From the IMG/VR virus record IMGVR_UViG_2734482568_000007: a stretch of 4,397 nt of DNA, one strand, 5' to 3'. Origin of the DNA: a virus. Lineage: Duplodnaviria; Heunggongvirae; Uroviricota; Caudoviricetes. Below the pieces are notes generated by a model. The model did no database searches. It was not told where the DNA came from and was given only the letters and a program-made list of their open reading frames with translations. A program made the translations under genes and the position numbers. Positions 1-4,397 of the stretch are shown here, one piece after another; positions within the stretch are counted from its first letter, which is position 1, and every line of letters starts with the position of its first letter.

Positions 1-60
1 CTCTCGTCTGGGGAATATCTCCCCGGCAGCCTTCAGGGAAAAATATCATCAGATGGCTGC

Positions 61-414
61 TTAAAAAAAGAACAAATGGTAGTGTCCGCTATTGCCAGTA
101 CACCTCAATTGCTCTGCGGCTTCGCTCAGAGCTGGCGTATGTTCCCGGCCTACTGATTCACACAGGTAATCAACGAAACCGGACACCAGTTTTCGTTCGC
201 GAGGCGTGATCGCCCCACCGACCGGAGTCCAGTAATCGAAACCCAGTTGCAGGAGTTTGAAAAAACGCTTGTGGAATGCGTAGTTACACACACGCTTAAA
301 GTCTGCGTGTATCCACTCACCTATTTTGATTTGATGCAGAAAATCGCAACTCTCCGGCGTCGCCGGGAGAAGTAATCCGGAAGAGGTTTGTTTGACCAGT
401 TGTATATGTGCCAT
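61..414 (-). CDS. Hypothetical phage protein, 117 aa from ATG 414 (MAHIQLVKQ...); family not recognised
   Basis: Six-frame ORF 61..456. The track's start at 456 is a TTG; the first ATG is at 412-414 and is preceded by GGAGAAAG about 5 nt upstream. Stop TAA at 61-63. Same strand and tight spacing with neighbouring genes. Confidence 0.5.
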   Translation of the reverse strand: MAHIQLVKQTSSGLLLPATPESCDFLHQIKIGEWIHADFKRVCNYAFHKRFFKLLQLGFDYWTPVGGAITPRERKLVSGFVDYLCESVGREHTPALSEAAEQLRCTGNSGHYHLFFF

Positions 415-452
415 CGGCTTTCTCCGGTGGCACGGTGTTACACAGCAGGAGT

Positions 453-740
453 TCAATCCTGCTCAAGATTGTAGATGAGTTTATTCTTCAGCAAAAGCAG
501 AAAACCAGCCTTAAAACCAATCTCTTTCAAAACCCGTAATGATGTGACAAATTCGTCCTCACGCAAAATAAAACCGTCCGTCAGAAGTCCATTACAAAAA
601 TAAAATAACACAGCACCGCTCTTCCTTTGTTGAGATTGCAAACATCTAATGCGGCAATGGCTGACAATCGCTCCATTCTCAACGCGCACAGCATAGAGGC
701 CATTTTCACTAAAAATTTCACGCAATTCTTCGATTTTCAT
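453..740 (-). CDS. Hypothetical small phage protein, 95 aa; family not recognised
   Basis: ORF with ATG at 738-740 preceded by GGAAGGA about 9 nt upstream; stop TGA at 453-455 overlapping the next gene. The C-terminal about 20 residues lie in AT-rich sequence (480-620) and are low complexity, so the 3' end is less certain. Confidence 0.5.
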   Translation of the reverse strand: MKIEELREIFSENGLYAVRVENGAIVSHCRIRCLQSQQRKSGAVLFYFCNGLLTDGFILREDEFVTSLRVLKEIGFKAGFLLLLKNKLIYNLEQD

Positions 741-821
741 CTTCAGAATCCTTCCAGATAAATAGCTCTCCCCTGTTCGGGGTCCATCCCTCTTCTCCCT
801 GCGCGCTACTTAAGTGAGTCG

Positions 822-849
822 ATTCTATCTGCGAAGGTGCGCGAATCAA
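822..849 (-). promoter_or_regulatory. Predicted sigma70-type promoter for the downstream genes (-35 TTGATT, 16-nt spacer, -10 TAGAAT on the minus strand)
   Basis: Minus-strand reading: TTGATT (plus 844-849), 16 nt, TAGAAT (plus 822-827). It sits just downstream of the hok terminator and about 75 nt upstream of the ATG at 740. Hexamer match only. Confidence 0.3.
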
Positions 850-865
850 ATTCACCGGAAATAAA

Positions 866-912
866 CAACAAAAAACCCGCCGAAACGCTGAGAGATCACA
901 GCGATGGGCGGG
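866..912 (-). terminator. Rho-independent terminator at the 3' end of the hok transcript
   Basis: Minus-strand RNA: CCCGCC-CAU-CGCUG-[UGAUCUCU]-CAGCG-UUUC-GGCGGG followed by UUUUUUGUUGUUU. Two stacked GC-rich stems followed directly by a U run. Confidence 0.55.
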
Positions 913-915
913 TTA

Positions 916-933
916 AGTGCGGGTGCGTTGAGG
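916..933 (-). promoter_or_regulatory. fbi-like 3' element of the hok mRNA, complementary to its 5' end (1304-1320)
   Basis: Plus 916-933 agtgcgggtgcgttgagg is the near-perfect reverse complement of plus 1304-1320 cctcaagcacccgcagt (16 of 18, one 1-nt bulge). On the transcript this gives 5'-end/3'-end pairing as in hok-family mRNAs (tac/fbi). Confidence 0.45.
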
Positions 934-953
934 ATGCCTGACACATCAGAGGT

Positions 954-981
954 GGGCGGGGATGGGATCAGCTCCCCGCCC
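954..981 (-). other. Stable GC stem-loop just 3' of the hok stop codon
   Basis: Perfect 8-bp inverted repeat gggcgggg (954-961) / ccccgccc (974-981) with a 12-nt loop. No U run follows on either strand, so it is a structural element rather than a terminator. Confidence 0.4.
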
Positions 982-989
982 GGTCACTC

Positions 990-1145
990 TTACTTCCTGG
1001 ATTCGTAGTCTACGAAGACAGCGACCTCCGTCTGGCCGGTTCGGATTCGTACCTCACAGAGGTCTTTCCTCGTTACCAGTGCCGTCACTATGACGGTTAA
1101 ACAGATGACGATCAGGGCGATTAACATCGCCTTTTGCTGCTTCAT
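990..1145 (-). CDS. hok: Hok/Gef-family type I toxin, 51 aa membrane peptide (HokD/RelF-like)
   Basis: Translation MKQQKAMLIALIVICLTVIVTALVTRKDLCEVRIRTGQTEVAVFVDYESRK is near-identical over most of its length to the HokD/RelF and Gef sequences as I remember them; only the C-terminal 7 residues differ. ATG at 1143-1145 with AAGGAG 9 nt upstream; TAA at 990-992. The track's 70-aa ORF is an in-frame upstream extension (ATGs at 1202 and 1172). Confidence 0.9.
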   Translation of the reverse strand: MKQQKAMLIALIVICLTVIVTALVTRKDLCEVRIRTGQTEVAVFVDYESRK

Positions 1146-1321
1146 AGCCTGCTTCTCCTTGCCTTTCGGCATGTAAGAGGCTAACCTACATGTGCAAAGC
1201 ATGAAATTGGCCTCAGATTAATGTTAAGCGTCTTGCCGGACGCGTAATGTTAACTGGGGCTTTTCTCTATCTGCCTTTTGGTGTTCATGCCTGAAGCAGA
1301 TAGCCTCAAGCACCCGCAGTC

Positions 1322-1351
1322 ATTCTACTTACCTCGCCAATATGAAATCAA
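1322..1351 (-). promoter_or_regulatory. Predicted promoter of the hok mRNA (-35 TTGATT, 18-nt spacer, -10 TAGAAT on the minus strand)
   Basis: Minus-strand reading: TTGATT (plus 1346-1351), 18 nt, TAGAAT (plus 1322-1327). The predicted start near 1314-1318 coincides with the tac-like segment 1304-1320, giving a transcript of about 440 nt to the terminator at 866-912, typical for hok-family mRNAs. Confidence 0.35.
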
Positions 1352-1372
1352 TCAGAAAGGTGCCCCATAAAA

Positions 1373-2059
1373 TCACTCCTTCTCTTCTTTACCGTAGTGG
1401 AGTTGACCAATTTTGATAAGAGGGCGTCCCTGAGATTTGCGGTGTAGATTGGTATCGCGCAGAGAATACACACAGCCACAATATTCCTGCTGATAGAATT
1501 TTTCGCGCTTGCTGATTTCAATCATACGGGACGAGCCGCCCTGCTTGCGCCAGTTATAATCCCAGTACACCATGCCCGGATAATGCGCGACGGCTCGCCG
1601 CCCACAGTCGTTAACCTGCTGCATATTTTTCCAGCGTGAAATGCCCAGTGAACTGCTGATCACACTGAAACCATTTTCAGCGGCGTACAGCGCTGTCCGC
1701 TCAAAACGCATGTCAAAACACATGGTGCAACGGATCCCTCGTTCGGGCTCCCATTCCATTCCTTTGGCTCGTTCAAACCAGTTGTCTGTGTCGTAATCAG
1801 CATCAATAAACGGCACGCCGTGTTGTTCAGCAAAGCGAATATTCTCATCCTTACGAATTAAATACTCTTTCTGAGGATGAATGTTCGGGTTGTAGAAAAA
1901 GATGGTGTAGTCGATTCCCGAGGCCTGAAGCGCCTCCATCACCTCACCGGAACATGGAGCACAGCAAGAGTGCAGTAGTAGTTTGTTTGCCCCGTTTGGG
2001 AGCTCCAATTTGGGCCGTTTGAAATCAGCAACTGTCATAAATATGTTTATTGGGGTCAT
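1373..2059 (-). CDS. queH: QueH-like protein (DUF208, epoxyqueuosine reductase family), 228 aa
   Basis: Translation carries the [11 protein letters not shown] motif I associate with DUF208/QueH, plus further Cys pairs (RCTMC, CGC). Full-length ORF with ATG at 2057-2059; an alternative ATG at 2036-2038 exists and neither has a strong SD. Stop at 1373-1375. Confidence 0.8.
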
Positions 2060-2206
2060 AAAAATATCAAAGAGTGTAGCATTAGAACGGGGCTATCGGA
2101 AACAGATGTGTGACTGCTCCCCGCCCTTTCGGGTGGTCTCCTGATGATTTGAGGGTGCAGAAATCCCTCCGGTTAAGGATTAAATTTTTAACAGTGCTAA
2201 ATTTAA

Positions 2207-2563
2207 TTATTCAGTTCTGGATTTTGTCGCCCTGCGTATCCGCGCTTTCGCGTTACGCTCAATCTGTATCAGCTTTTCTATATTTCTCCGCCTTTCCTGT
2301 TCCTCCTGGCGCAATAGCCTTACATCATCTGCCAGTCTGGTTTCTCTTTTTGCCACAGAGAGCATCCAGTCAAACGGCTCCACAACCGCACCGCAGATTT
2401 TACAGCGGACCTGACGCTCTTTTTCGTCAACCCGTACAGAGGCGTGATGGCAATATGGTCTTTCCGATGGCTCATAAAGAAAATTAACCTGATTACGAGG
2501 GTCATCCTCTTTTACCGGAAATAAAACGATATTGCTTAACTCATCTTCTGGTTTTATTTCCAT
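2207..2563 (-). CDS. Hypothetical small phage protein, 118 aa, with a CHH...CxxC cluster (putative metal-binding) and a highly charged Arg/Glu-rich C-terminal tail
   Basis: ORF 2207..2620. The preferred start is ATG 2561-2563 with AAGGAGAGGAG ending 6 nt upstream. An alternative ATG at 2618-2620 directly abuts the stop of the upstream gene (TGA-ATG) and would add 19 residues. Motif CHHASVRVDEKERQVRCKICG; tail QEEQERRRNIEKLIQIERNAKARIRR. Confidence 0.55.
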   Translation of the reverse strand: MEIKPEDELSNIVLFPVKEDDPRNQVNFLYEPSERPYCHHASVRVDEKERQVRCKICGAVVEPFDWMLSVAKRETRLADDVRLLRQEEQERRRNIEKLIQIERNAKARIRRATKSRTE

Positions 2564-2620
2564 GCTCCTCTCCTTTGATGCGAATGCCAGCGGTAATTGA
2601 AGCCTGATAGCTAATTTCAT

Positions 2621-3043
2621 TCACAGTATCGCCTCCTGAAAATTACCCTGATAGAAAGCCAGTACACGCTGCATAGCTTCGCTCTTCCGGCACTCGCGAC
2701 AGATTATATTCAGGCGCCTGTCGTAGCGGCGTATTTCTCCGTCAGGTAATGACCAGATAAGGTCCGGATCAACAACAACCGGTTTCCTCACCTTTACTCT
2801 CGAGAGTTTTTTGCGGGCGCTTTGCCAGTCCTTGCGAGCCTGTTCAGACGGGAATAAGCCGTAGCCAGAATTATATACATCACCACTTGCGACCAGTTCT
2901 ATGCATAAGCGACCGACAGACGCACGACTGATACCTGTTTCATCTGACAACTGCCGAATCGTGACCCGACCGTCCTGATGCACGAGTTCCACAATTCGCG
3001 TCTTCAGTTCTTCCCGCTGTTCGGGAGTAAAAGGTTTCGCCAT
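2621..3043 (-). CDS. Phage helix-turn-helix/winged-helix protein, 140 aa; position matches the YdaW/DUF1627-type gene that follows the DnaC-like gene in Rac-like prophages (family name from memory, unverified)
   Basis: ATG at 3041-3043 with AGGAGG 4 nt upstream, 14 nt after the DnaC-like stop (TAG 3058-3060). Predicted HTH segment TIRQLSDETGISRASVGRLCIELVASG. Confidence 0.65.
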   Translation of the reverse strand: MAKPFTPEQREELKTRIVELVHQDGRVTIRQLSDETGISRASVGRLCIELVASGDVYNSGYGLFPSEQARKDWQSARKKLSRVKVRKPVVVDPDLIWSLPDGEIRRYDRRLNIICRECRKSEAMQRVLAFYQGNFQEAIL

Positions 3044-3057
3044 AAATCCTCCTGAAA

Positions 3058-3609
3058 CTACTTAACAACCCTCGAATGGCTAACATTCGGACGCCAGCTC
3101 TCCCAGTTAAAATTCACCCAGCGCCNNNNNNNNNNNNNNNNNNNNNNNNNNNNNNNNNNNNNNNNNNNNNNNNNNNNNNNNNNNNNNNNNNNNNNNNNNN
3201 NNNNNNNNNNNNNNNNNNNNNNNNNNNNNNNNNNNNNNNNNNNNNNGATAGCTGCCGCTAAGTGATTCTTCCCGGTACCAGGTTTTCCGCTGAACGCAAA
3301 ATTTGTACACCCGGTCATCAGTTCATCGGCGATGGATTTCGCCTGGCTTAACGCGTATCGCTGGCCGTCGTTCTGCACCTGGTAATTCGCAAACGAGCAT
3401 TTACGGTGCAACGGCTGGATGCCTGAGCGATTCAGAATTTTTTCCACCCGCAACTGGCGATTCAGGCGGTTGATCTCCTCGCTACGTTTCTGGCCTTCAG
3501 CAAGTTGCCACTCGCGCCACTCCGCTACCGTTCTGAATGGGGCGGTTACATGTGGCGGGGTCAGTCGGCGGATGCGTTCCAGAACGCCGCCTGTCGCAAT
3601 ATTTTTCAT
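3058..3609 (-). CDS. DnaC-like replicative helicase loader (prophage paralogue, YdaV-type), interrupted by a 121-nt N run
   Basis: N-terminal 121 aa align with E. coli DnaC as I recall it (MKN..., NRSGIQPLHRKCSFANYQV, Walker A FSGKPGTGKNHLAAAI). After the N run the same frame gives RWVNFNWESWRPNV, matching the DnaC C-terminus (WVIFNWDSYRSRV). ATG at 3607-3609 lies 6 nt after the upstream TAA. Confidence 0.85.
   Translation of the reverse strand: MKNIATGGVLERIRRLTPPHVTAPFRTVAEWREWQLAEGQKRSEEINRLNRQLRVEKILNRSGIQPLHRKCSFANYQVQNDGQRYALSQAKSIADELMTGCTNFAFSGKPGTGKNHLAAAIXXXXXXXXXXXXXXXXXXXXXXXXXXXXXXXXXXXXXXXXXRWVNFNWESWRPNVSHSRVVK
3126..3246. other. Run of 121 N (assembly gap or masked sequence) inside the DnaC-like gene
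   Basis: Positions 3126-3246 are all n. The reading frame happens to be preserved across the run, but it covers only 41 codons where canonical DnaC has about 105 residues between Walker A and the C-terminal motif. Confidence 0.95.
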
Positions 3610-3615
3610 GGTCCG

Positions 3616-4292
3616 TTACCCCCTGAAGCCTGGCGGGATCGCACTGTCCGGCAACGAGACGGTGTTAACCTGTCGGAGCAACGTCTCAGGCCGAACACCT
3701 TTCGGCGCGAACAGGCCCTGGTATTCATTGGCGATGCTGTGTCGAATCACCTGCTCAGGTGTAAAACCCTGCTGACGGAATTTTTCCAGTTCCCGTATCG
3801 CCCCGTTAGCGCCCTGCTCCGTTCGAATCGGTTTTCGCAATGCCTGTCTGAACCGGACCCACTCATGCCAGAGTGTTTCCGGCAACCAATCGGGCAGCTC
3901 AATAGCCTCCGGCTCGAATTTTTTAGACGCTCGTTTTTGGCGAGGGGGAGATCAGTATTTAGATCTTCCTCTTCCTCTTCCTCTGGTAACGCTTTTTGAT
4001 CCGTTTGTGTAACGCTGGCAGCGTTACCTTTTCGTTTCAGTTCGCGTATTTTTGTTACTCGCTCGTTTGTAACCGCCCGTTTTTTTTAGAGCTTTTTCCG
4101 TTATGACGTTCAAAGTTAGGTAGAGAAAGCCCTCCGTCATTTTCGACCAGCCATCCAACCTGAATTAACGCATCAGCAAAACCAGACATAAAAGTGATGC
4201 GATCTATTGCACTTTTTGTAACGCCGCGAGCGTTACAATCTGCATTACCGTCTATCATTTGTTGATCCGCCCATGCCCAGAAGCGAATAACC
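3616..4292 (-). pseudogene. DnaT-like / YdaU-type phage replication (primosomal) gene, 5'-truncated by the IS and split across three reading frames
   Basis: The C-terminal frame (3616-3951) ends RQVNTVSLPDSAIPPGFRG, matching the E. coli DnaT C-terminus (...NTVSEPDSQIPPGFRG). The upstream frame (4055-4292) stops 8 codons after an A8 run. A third frame is open from 4085 down through the region between them and includes a poly-Glu stretch. Both frame changes are one-base shortfalls in the same direction at homopolymers. The segment 4293-4318 of the track ORF is IS sequence. Confidence 0.6.
3985..4076. repeat. Cluster of direct and inverted GTAACGC-type motifs (iteron-like) inside the linker of the replication gene
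   Basis: ggtaacgc (3985-3992), gtaacgc (4009-4015), gcgttac (4021-4027, forming a perfect 7-bp palindrome with the previous copy around tggca), gttactcgc (4054-4062), gtaaccgc (4069-4076). A (cttcct)x3 tandem hexamer lies at 3965-3982 and A/T runs flank the cluster. Confidence 0.4.
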
Positions 4293-4397
4293 TGAGGTAG
4301 CCTGAGTTTAACGGACACTCCTTCCTGAAATAGAATGGCATCAGAAGGAGCTAATAATGAGCAGAAAAACCCAACGTTACTCTAAAGAGTTCAAAGC
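4293..4397 (+). mobile_element. Left end of an IS3-family insertion sequence (IS600-like), continuing beyond the window
   Basis: The terminal sequence starts TGAGGTAGCCTGAGTTTAACGGACAC, a TG-initiated inverted-repeat end of the IS3 type. It is followed by an SD (AGAAGGAG) and an orfA start at 4357 encoding MSRKTQRYSKEFK, which matches IS600 OrfA from memory. The boundary is approximate to within a few nt. Confidence 0.65.
4357..4397 (+). CDS. IS3-family transposase OrfA, N-terminal 13 codons (partial, runs off the window)
   Basis: ATG 4357-4359 preceded by AGAAGGAG with a 6-nt spacer; translation MSRKTQRYSKEFK. Confidence 0.65.
   Translation, partial: MSRKTQRYSKEFK

What the first reader, a model, noticed from the sequence alone, without database searches (positions are those of the whole stretch)
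866..1351. Apparently intact hok-type type I toxin locus with locatable RNA architecture
Chromosomal hok loci are often IS-disrupted or degenerate, but here every expected part is present. The Hok peptide is full length. A promoter-like TTGATT/TAGAAT pair would start the transcript near 1316. The extreme 5' segment (1304-1320) is the reverse complement of a 3' segment (916-933), as in tac/fbi fold-back inhibition. A terminator sits at 866-912 and a GC stem-loop at 954-981. Both ends also share an ATGCCTGA direct repeat (934-941 and 1287-1294), which would allow alternative pairing after 3' processing. The only upstream reading frame with a start codon is in frame with hok (ATGs at 1202 and 1172), not overlapping out of frame as in plasmid R1 mok.
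Basis: partly seen in the sequence, partly recalled or inferred. Interest (0 to 1): 0.55.

Follow-up and report, generated by a model that had tools for sequence, protein, structure and literature searches.

The report
Intact prophage hok/sok toxin-antitoxin locus
This is an ordinary, complete copy of the well-known hok/sok (hokW/hokD-type) RNA-controlled toxin-antitoxin module, sitting in an IS600-flanked remnant of a lambda-like prophage; all its RNA control elements can be located, but nothing about it is new.

Summary
The locus (window 868-1351, minus strand) is a complete hok/sok-family type I toxin-antitoxin module. The 51-aa peptide is a full-length Pfam Hok/Gef match. It is 98% identical to HokW of phage 933W/Sp5, which has been shown experimentally to be toxic, and the same protein is already annotated as HokD in RefSeq. 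The DNA is 92% identical to the annotated hokW/mokW/sokW locus. Rfam RF01794 matches the mRNA leader at 117 bits. Folding gives tac-fbi 5'/3' pairing with probability about 1 (MFE z = -8.8). Across 33 family loci, tac-fbi, the local metastable 5' hairpin and tac-ucb are 93%, 96% and 99% paired, with coupled compensatory changes. The ATGCCTGA repeat has an explanation: the 5' copy is tac's partner in the metastable hairpin, and the 3' copy abuts fbi and pairs with the mok start codon. The in-frame mok is the majority arrangement (20 of 33 loci; also mokC and mokW), not an oddity. Near-complete copies occur in about 2130 of 5426 complete E. coli genomes. Verdict: interpretation supported, already known, low interest.

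The parts
1322..1351 (-). hok/mok mRNA promoter: -35 TTGATT (1351..1346), 18-nt spacer, -10 TAGAAT (1327..1322)
   Evidence: 9/12 match to consensus. The -10 and downstream sequence are conserved with 933W hokW. The transcript start at 1315 is inferred from the Rfam model start and the family alignment.
868..1315 (-). Full-length hok mRNA (about 445 nt)
   Evidence: MFE -189.6 kcal/mol, z = -8.8 against dinucleotide shuffles. The ends are inferred from the promoter and terminator and by homology with R1, hokC and hokW.
1304..1315 (-). tac (translational activator element), GGGUGCUUGAGG, at the 5' end of the mRNA
   Evidence: Pairs with fbi in the MFE at probability 0.97-1.0. Nearly invariant in 33 loci.
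1287..1297 (-). Local partner of tac in the metastable 5' hairpin (GCUUCAGGCAU).
   Evidence: The nascent 30-50 nt fold into hairpin 3-13::19-29, -16.9 kcal/mol. 96.1% of cells are paired in 33 loci against 34-45% when slid, with compensatory U-A to C-G in 6 loci.
1256..1262 (-). ucb / anti-SD box (AAGCCCC). Pairs with the mok SD in the closed form and with tac in the open form.
   Evidence: Rfam RF01794 consensus structure. tac-ucb is 99.1% paired in 33 loci. In the full-length MFE, 1260..1254 pairs with 1216..1210, which includes GAGG.
1211..1214 (-). mok Shine-Dalgarno GAGG, 8 nt upstream of the mok AUG
   Evidence: CTGAGGC is nearly invariant in the family alignment.
990..1202 (-). mok leader reading frame, 70 codons, in frame with hok and sharing its stop (MLCTCRLASYMPKGKEKQA + Hok)
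   Evidence: Same arrangement as the annotated mokW and mokC. 20 of 33 loci are in frame.
1155..1160 (-). hok Shine-Dalgarno AAGGAG
   Evidence: Invariant CAAGGAG in the family alignment.
990..1145 (-). hok toxin gene, 51 aa
   Evidence: Pfam HOK_GEF 81 bits, full-length match. 98% identical to HokW, 90% to K-12 HokD, 78% to HokC, 40% to R1 Hok. Annotated hokD, WP_014532198.1, in an identical RefSeq locus.
1159..1187 (+). Sok promoter: -35 TTGCCT (1159-1164), 17-nt spacer, -10 TAACCT (1182-1187). The -35 overlaps the hok SD on the other strand.
   Evidence: Positionally conserved with the sequences upstream of the annotated sokW and sokC and the corresponding R1-type region. It is below the threshold of the simple scan, so promoter activity is inferred.
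1194..1264 (+). Sok antisense RNA (about 71 nt): single-stranded 5' tail covering the mok AUG, a long hairpin, and a U tail
   Evidence: Coordinates transferred from the annotated 71-nt sokW. Fold -30.2 kcal/mol, z = -4.7.
954..981 (-). GC-rich hairpin just after the hok stop codon (9-bp stem)
   Evidence: A GGCGGGGAG...TCCCCGCC hairpin is present at this position throughout the family alignment.
949..952 (-). Candidate dcb (CCUC), which pairs with the mok SD in the tac-ucb (open) conformer of truncated RNA
   Evidence: Constrained folds. This is an inference only.
934..941 (-). 3' copy of the 8-mer (UCAGGCAU on the RNA), immediately 5' of fbi
   Evidence: AGGCAU pairs with the mok start AUGCUU (1202..1197) in the full-length MFE, and the same pairing appears in hokW. 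The three AUG pairs are 89.6% conserved across 33 loci and the outer pairs 62-69%.
921..933 (-). fbi (fold-back inhibitory element), CCUCAA-C-GCACCC
   Evidence: tac-fbi is 93.4% paired in 33 loci, with 4 pairs changed on both sides.
868..914 (-). Intrinsic terminator: AACCCGCC...GGCGGGUU outer stem, nested CGCUG/CAGCG stem, then a U-run
   Evidence: Close relatives have a shorter ACCCGC-TTCG-GCGGGT-T(n) version at the same place.

Best explanation
Window 868-1351 is a complete hok/sok-family type I toxin-antitoxin module of the hokW/hokD subtype. It is carried on an IS600-bracketed remnant of a Rac/lambda-like prophage.

The proposed mechanism has these steps:

1. A moderately strong promoter (1351..1322) makes a stable mRNA of about 445 nt.
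2. While the mRNA is being made, its 5' tac element is held in a local metastable hairpin with 1297..1287.
3. In the finished RNA, tac pairs with fbi near the 3' end (933..921). The ucb box covers the mok Shine-Dalgarno sequence. The sequence next to fbi covers the mok AUG. The RNA is therefore neither translated nor bound by Sok.
4. Slow 3' trimming removes the terminator and fbi. tac then switches to ucb, which exposes the mok translation start and the Sok target.
5. Translation of mok is needed for Hok to be made. Here mok is in frame, so it reads straight through hok.
6. Hok is a 51-aa inner-membrane peptide that depolarises and kills the cell.
7. The unstable 71-nt antisense RNA Sok (1194-1264, + strand) pairs with the mok start region and triggers cleavage by RNase III.
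8. Hok therefore appears only when Sok synthesis stops, for example on loss of the element or on prophage induction.

Shown here at sequence and fold level: the presence, position and conservation of every element. Inferred from characterised relatives (R1 hok/sok, hokW-sokW): transcription, 3' processing, Sok action and toxicity.
For: - Protein: full-length Pfam PF01848 match at 81 bits; 98% identity to HokW and 90% to K-12 HokD.
- DNA: an identical locus is annotated hokD in RefSeq. It is 92% identical to the 933W locus, which carries mokW, hokW and sokW annotations.
- Leader: Rfam RF01794 covers 1315..1140 end to end at 117 bits against a gathering score of 59, E = 4e-27.
- Full-length fold: z = -8.8, with tac-fbi pair probabilities 0.97-1.0.
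- Controls with the same method: an R1-type mRNA gives tac-fbi, and K-12 hokC, whose fbi was removed by IS186, gives tac-ucb.
- Conservation in 33 loci from Escherichia, Shigella, Kluyvera, Photorhabdus, Pantoea, Rosenbergiella, Pseudocitrobacter, a P1-like plasmid and an R1-type plasmid: tac-fbi 93.4% paired with 4 doubly changed pairs; metastable hairpin 96.1%; tac-ucb 99.1%. All are far above the slid controls. tac position 4 changes from U to C together with A to G in both partners, which is a coupled covariation.
- Folding pathway: the nascent 30-50 nt fold as the metastable hairpin and 62 nt fold as tac-ucb.
- Sok: aligns with the annotated sokW and sokC, has a conserved promoter position, and folds as hairpin plus U tail, z = -4.7.
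- Experiments on the closest relative: HokW is toxic, SokW neutralises it, and neutralisation depends on RNase III and Hfq (PMC8621323).
- The canonical model (tac/fbi, ucb anti-SD, dcb, metastable hairpin) is as summarised in PMC9841398.
Against: - There are no expression data for this locus.
- The Sok promoter is a weak consensus match (7/12), and the simple scan did not call it.
- In folds of 3'-truncated RNA, the MFE keeps the closed form. The tac-ucb open form lies 1.9-2.2 kcal/mol higher. That gap is within model error, but it is not a positive prediction of the switch.
- The terminator is longer than in relatives, so about 55 nt would have to be trimmed to reach fbi.
- The peptide differs from the tested HokW by E50R.
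- The host prophage is defective, so the lysis-assisting role shown for hokW may not apply here.
Confidence: 0.93

Rival explanations
1. The locus is a silent relic. It looks intact, but it is no longer expressed or no longer toxic. Possible reasons are a weak hok or Sok promoter, the E50R change, or failure of 3' processing because of the enlarged terminator. It would persist only by hitch-hiking in the prophage remnant.
For: - The surrounding prophage is decaying: IS600 at both ends, a truncated DUF1367 gene and a frameshifted O-like gene.
- K-12 shows that hok loci are often inactivated: IS150 in mokA/sokA, IS186 next to hokC and hokE, and hokD stripped of its leader.
- The terminator carries an insertion of about 27 nt relative to close relatives.
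- There are no expression data.
Against: - Every element is present, in register, and pairs as in functional relatives.
- There are no frameshifts or stops in hok or mok.
- The promoter -10 and the leader are nearly identical to the experimentally active hokW locus.
- The single amino-acid change lies in the variable C-terminal tail.
Confidence: 0.06
2. The 5'/3' complementarity and the 8-mer repeat are chance features of a GC-rich untranslated region and play no part in regulation.
For: - Two copies of an 8-mer in 486 nt are not rare: 1.7 pairs are expected from shuffles.
- For several hokC-type loci the tac/3'-UTR duplex z-score is only about -1 against shuffled tac.
Against: - The region holds 7 repeated 8-mer pairs against 1.7 expected (p about 0.015).
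- tac-fbi and tac with the 5' copy pair in 93-96% of cells across 33 diverged loci, against 34-52% when slid by 1-3 columns. Compensatory and coupled changes are present.
- In loci where IS186 removed fbi, the pairing is lost as expected.
Confidence: 0.01

Closest known systems
hokW-mokW-sokW of Stx2 phage 933W / Sakai prophage Sp5 (AF125520; Takada et al. 2021, PMC8621323)
   Same: About 92% nucleotide identity from the -10 box to fbi. The toxin is 98% identical, differing at one residue. mok has the same in-frame 70 codons, Sok has the same position and hairpin, and tac and fbi are identical. Both sit in a lambdoid prophage.
   Different: - The -35 region and everything 3' of fbi are unrelated; the window has its own long terminator.
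- 7 of the 20 nt targeted by Sok's 5' tail differ.
- The neighbouring genes differ: here the locus lies between queH and a DUF1367/nin-type region.
- The host prophage is a defective, IS600-bracketed fragment.
E. coli K-12 chromosomal hok loci (hokD/relF in Qin; hokC/gef with mokC and sokC; hokA, hokB, hokE)
   Same: Same family. HokD is 90% and HokC 78% identical. mokC is also in frame with hokC. The tac, ucb and SD boxes are shared with hokC and hokB.
   Different: K-12 copies are crippled. Only 71 nt separate hokD from the end of relE, so hokD has no leader, mok or sok. IS186 sits directly after hokC and hokE and removes fbi. IS150 splits mokA and sokA. The window copy retains all parts. 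The RefSeq name 'HokD' for the window protein reflects protein similarity only.
hok/sok (parB) of plasmid R1 and the identical flm locus of F-type plasmids
   Same: Same architecture and folding logic: tac/fbi, metastable hairpin, ucb anti-SD, mok leader frame, Sok antisense to the mok start, post-stop hairpin and terminator (PMC9841398).
   Different: Only 40% protein identity and about 50% nucleotide identity. R1 mok is in the +1 frame relative to hok (58 nt between the ATGs), whereas here it is in frame (57 nt). R1 is plasmid-borne and this copy is prophage-borne.

Membership tests
hok/sok type I toxin-antitoxin family | Small hydrophobic Hok/Gef toxin (about 50 aa, Pfam PF01848) | tested here: met
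   81 bits, profile 1-42/42. 98% identical to HokW.
hok/sok type I toxin-antitoxin family | mok leader reading frame with its own SD, starting about 57 nt upstream of hok and overlapping it | tested here: met
   ATG at 1202 with GAGG 8 nt upstream; 70 codons, in frame. Same as the annotated mokW and mokC.
hok/sok type I toxin-antitoxin family | cis-encoded antisense RNA (Sok) with its own promoter, complementary to the mok translation start, with a 5' tail plus hairpin plus U tail | tested here: met
   1194-1264 (+), aligned to the annotated sokW and sokC, with -35/-10 at conserved positions. Fold z = -4.7. Expression was not tested.
hok/sok type I toxin-antitoxin family | tac/fbi long-range 5'-3' pairing in the full-length mRNA | tested here: met
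   Pair probability 0.97-1.0. 93.4% paired with 4 doubly changed pairs in 33 loci. Positive and negative controls behaved as expected.
hok/sok type I toxin-antitoxin family | Alternative tac/ucb stem, with ucb acting as anti-SD for mok | tested here: met
   The Rfam CM, which has this structure, scores 117 bits. 99.1% paired in 33 loci. ucb pairs with the mok SD in the full-length MFE. In truncated RNA the open form is 1.9-2.2 kcal/mol above the MFE.
hok/sok type I toxin-antitoxin family | Metastable 5' hairpin sequestering tac in the nascent transcript | tested here: met
   It is the MFE of the first 30-50 nt. 96.1% paired, with compensatory changes, in 33 loci.
hok/sok type I toxin-antitoxin family | Slow 3' exonucleolytic processing to a truncated, translatable mRNA | not testable with these tools
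   Needs Northern blots or 3' RACE. For hokW, truncated RNAs were noted on Northern blots (PMC8621323).
hok/sok type I toxin-antitoxin family | Toxicity of the peptide (membrane depolarisation) and its neutralisation by Sok through RNase III | not testable with these tools
   Shown for HokW/SokW, which differ from this toxin by one residue (PMC8621323).
hokW/hokD prophage subtype | High nucleotide identity across leader, CDS and fbi, and residence in a lambdoid prophage | tested here: met
   92% identity to 933W. Flanked by QueH, DUF977, ydaV-like, DUF1367 and other phage genes.

The most novel reading that the evidence does not exclude
In most chromosomal and prophage loci (20 of 33 sampled, including this one) mok is in frame with hok. 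Ribosomes starting at the mok AUG would therefore make a 70-aa, N-terminally extended Hok rather than a separate leader peptide. This extended form could itself be a toxin isoform, or the main one, with different membrane targeting or potency. 'Translational coupling' in the R1 sense would then not be what activates these loci.

A second, smaller possibility concerns Sok specificity. Sequence differences pile up in the 20 nt recognised by Sok's 5' tail, which may reflect selection to insulate the several hok/sok paralogues that coexist in one genome.
Probability: 0.2. Interest if true: 0.3.

Novelty: already known. Interest (0 to 1): 0.1.

Why it matters
It matters little beyond correct annotation. 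The RefSeq record for the identical locus lists only the hokD CDS, whereas mok, Sok and the mRNA control elements can all be placed to the nucleotide. The locus also shows that a first-pass reader can recover the whole hok mRNA architecture from raw sequence. It is one more case of a toxin-antitoxin module remaining intact while the prophage around it decays. No open question is made newly testable by this copy, because the one-residue-different hokW-sokW has already been characterised experimentally.

Tried and rejected
- The simple terminator scan found nothing in 800-1420. Its loop limit of 3-8 nt excludes this nested hairpin, and full folding shows the terminator.
- The search for related loci with the nine-sequence Hok alignment (A2) failed because it had no conserved stretch of 7-10 columns. 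Repeating it with five close sequences (A3) worked.
- My first regular expression for tac was wrong and found almost nothing. It was corrected.
- Unconstrained MFE folds of 3'-truncated RNA did not give the canonical tac-ucb open form. They kept the metastable hairpin or, when trimmed to 928, paired tac with the 3' 8-mer copy. Constrained folding shows the open form only 1.9-2.2 kcal/mol higher, so I treat this as uninformative rather than as evidence against the switch.
- Counts for the post-stop GC hairpin on alignment A5 are poor (63.9% paired). MAFFT misregisters the window's longer loop, so I did not use that number.
- I considered that the Rfam 'sok' hit on the minus strand might locate the antitoxin. 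I rejected this because the hit starts at tac and ends at the hok AUG, so it is the mRNA leader.
- I considered the second in-frame ATG at 1172 as an alternative mok start. I rejected it because it is GTG or absent in relatives and lies inside a small hairpin.
- I did not use the large protein searches, structure prediction or the metagenome scan, because the identity of the locus was already unambiguous.

Full report
**Observation**

- The 51-codon ORF at 1145..990 (minus strand) encodes MKQQKAMLIALIVICLTVIVTALVTRKDLCEVRIRTGQTEVAVFVDYESRK.
- The promoter-like pair is TTGATT (1351..1346) and TAGAAT (1327..1322) with an 18-nt spacer.
- The 5' segment 1304-1320 is the reverse complement of 916-933, with one bulged C and one mismatch.
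- The terminator is a nested hairpin at 914..874 followed by a U-run to about 868.
- The in-frame ATGs at 1202 and 1172 exist.

**Identity**

- The peptide matches Pfam PF01848 (Hok/Gef) over the whole profile at 81 bits.
- The 561-nt region is 100% identical to two RefSeq E. coli chromosomes, where the ORF is annotated hokD (WP_014532198.1). It sits between an epoxyqueuosine reductase QueH gene and phage nin-type genes.
- It is about 92% identical to the hokW/mokW/sokW locus of Stx2 phage 933W and many Stx phages.
- At protein level it is 98% identical to HokW (E50R only), 90% to K-12 HokD, 78% to HokC and 40% to R1 Hok.
- hokW-sokW has been characterised experimentally. HokW is toxic and localises to the inner membrane. 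SokW (71 nt) neutralises it in an RNase III- and Hfq-dependent way. The module speeds lysis and phage release after prophage induction (PMC8621323).

**RNA architecture**

Rfam RF01794 ('sok') matches 1315..1140 on the minus strand end to end: 117 bits against a gathering score of 59, E = 4e-27. The match begins at GGGUGCUUGAGG and ends at the hok AUG. The model therefore describes the hok mRNA leader, not the antisense RNA. It independently places the 5' end at 1315.

Folding of the full-length RNA (1315..872):

- The energy is -189.6 kcal/mol, z = -8.8.
- tac (1315..1304) pairs with fbi (933..921) at probability 0.97-1.0.
- The ucb box (1262..1256 region) pairs with the mok SD GAGG.
- The mok start AUGCUU (1202..1197) pairs with AGGCAU (939..934).
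- The hok AUG is fully paired.

Controls behaved as expected. An R1-type mRNA folded by the same method gives GGCGCUU::AAGCGCC end-pairing. K-12 hokC, whose 3' end is replaced by IS186, gives tac-ucb instead.

The first 30-50 nt of the window RNA fold into a local hairpin in which tac pairs with GCUUCAGGCAU (1297..1287). The first 62 nt fold into the tac-ucb structure. This reproduces the published folding pathway of metastable hairpin, closed full-length form and open truncated form (PMC9841398).

For 3'-truncated RNA the open tac-ucb form lies 1.9-2.2 kcal/mol above the predicted MFE. In that form the mok SD pairs with CCUC at 952..949, a candidate dcb.

**Comparative test**

A scan of species-representative genomes with a Hok alignment returned 55 loci. 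From these, together with 933W, a P1-like plasmid, an R1-type plasmid and K-12 hokB, I aligned 33 distinct complete mRNAs (A5). They come from Escherichia, Shigella, Kluyvera, Photorhabdus, Pantoea, Rosenbergiella and Pseudocitrobacter.

| Structure | Cells paired | Slid controls |
|---|---|---|
| tac-fbi | 93.4%, with 4 pairs changed on both sides | not reported per helix |
| metastable hairpin | 96.1% | 34-45% |
| tac-ucb | 99.1% | 19-71% |

For one search the slid control was computed only for the whole 43-pair structure: 81.4% paired against 42-52% when slid.

tac position 4 changes from U to C in six loci, together with A to G in both the local partner and fbi. This is the coupled-covariation signature of alternative pairings. 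The pairing of the mok AUG with the 3' 8-mer copy is conserved for the three AUG pairs (89.6%) and weaker further out (62-69%).

**The 8-mer repeat**

The repeat is not a coincidence. On the RNA both copies read UCAGGCAU. This is complementary, with G-U pairs, to tac GUGCUUGA and to the mok start AUGCUU. The 5' copy serves the metastable hairpin. The 3' copy extends the fold-back region over the mok start. Only in one partially trimmed in-silico form (3' end at 928) does the 3' copy pair with tac.

**Sok**

By alignment with the annotated sokW and sokC and the corresponding R1-type region, Sok runs from 1194 to about 1264 on the plus strand. Its promoter is -35 TTGCCT (1159-1164, overlapping the hok SD on the other strand) and -10 TAACCT (1182-1187). 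It folds as a free 5' tail covering the mok AUG, a long hairpin and a U tail, at -30.2 kcal/mol, z = -4.7.

**mok frame**

The leader frame from ATG 1202 is in frame with hok, with 57 nt between the ATGs. The same is true of the annotated mokW and mokC and of 20 of the 33 family loci. Eight loci, including the R1-type and P1-like ones, have 58 nt and a +1 frame. The feature is real but ordinary.

**How common are intact copies?**

- 4713 of 5426 complete E. coli genomes have a match, and 2130 have a copy covering at least 80% of the query.
- K-12 is atypically degenerate. Its hokD has lost its leader, with only 71 nt between relE and hokD. IS186 abuts hokC and hokE. IS150 splits mokA and sokA.

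Intactness is therefore not remarkable.

**Context**

- Window 1-107 and 4294-4397 are the end and the start of IS600, in the same orientation.
- The DUF1367 gene is cut at 108.
- The O-like replication gene is frameshifted relative to FDAARGOS_943, and a 121-N run replaces 316 nt of the ydaV-like gene.
- The toxin-antitoxin module is thus intact inside a decaying prophage fragment.

**Verdict**

Transcription, 3' processing, Sok action and toxicity for this exact copy are inferred from close relatives and were not shown here.

Noticed in passing
window 1-107 and 4294-4397: Both window ends are IS600: the last 107 nt of one copy and the first 104 nt of another, in the same orientation. The 4.2-kb prophage fragment 108-4293 is therefore bracketed by direct IS600 copies, a composite-transposon-like layout typical of Shigella-like genomes.
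   Followed up: partly
window 61-456 (-), 3616-4293 (-), 3126-3246: The prophage is decaying. The DUF1367 gene is truncated by IS600 (Pfam covers only 1-102 of 198). The O-like replication gene is frameshifted relative to E. coli FDAARGOS_943 (4 gaps) and cut by the other IS600. A run of 121 N replaces 316 nt of the ydaV/DnaC-like gene.
   Followed up: partly
window 1140-1315 (-): Rfam RF01794, named 'sok antitoxin', matches the hok-mRNA strand from tac to the hok AUG. The model represents the hok leader, not the antisense RNA. A naive reading of the Rfam hit would put the antitoxin on the wrong strand.
   Followed up: yes
window 1190-1209 (RNA positions 107-126): Among close relatives, differences cluster in the 20 nt targeted by Sok's single-stranded 5' tail: 7-13 of 20 in five of the six diverged close relatives (3 of 20 in the sixth), against 0-2 of 39 in the Sok hairpin target. 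This suggests diversification of antisense specificity between paralogous hok/sok loci.
   Followed up: partly
window 874-914 (-): The terminator hairpin carries an insertion of about 27 nt that forms a nested CGCUG/CAGCG stem, relative to the short ACCCGC-TTCG-GCGGGT terminator of close relatives. 933W has unrelated sequence 3' of fbi.
   Followed up: no
window 822-849 (-): A second TTGATT-16-TAGAAT promoter-like site lies just downstream of the hok terminator, in front of the 95-aa ORF 740..453, which has no Pfam match.
   Followed up: no
window 1373-2059 (-): A phage-borne epoxyqueuosine reductase QueH gene (Pfam 220 bits) ends only 22 nt upstream of the hok -35 box, so read-through transcription into hok is conceivable.
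   Followed up: no
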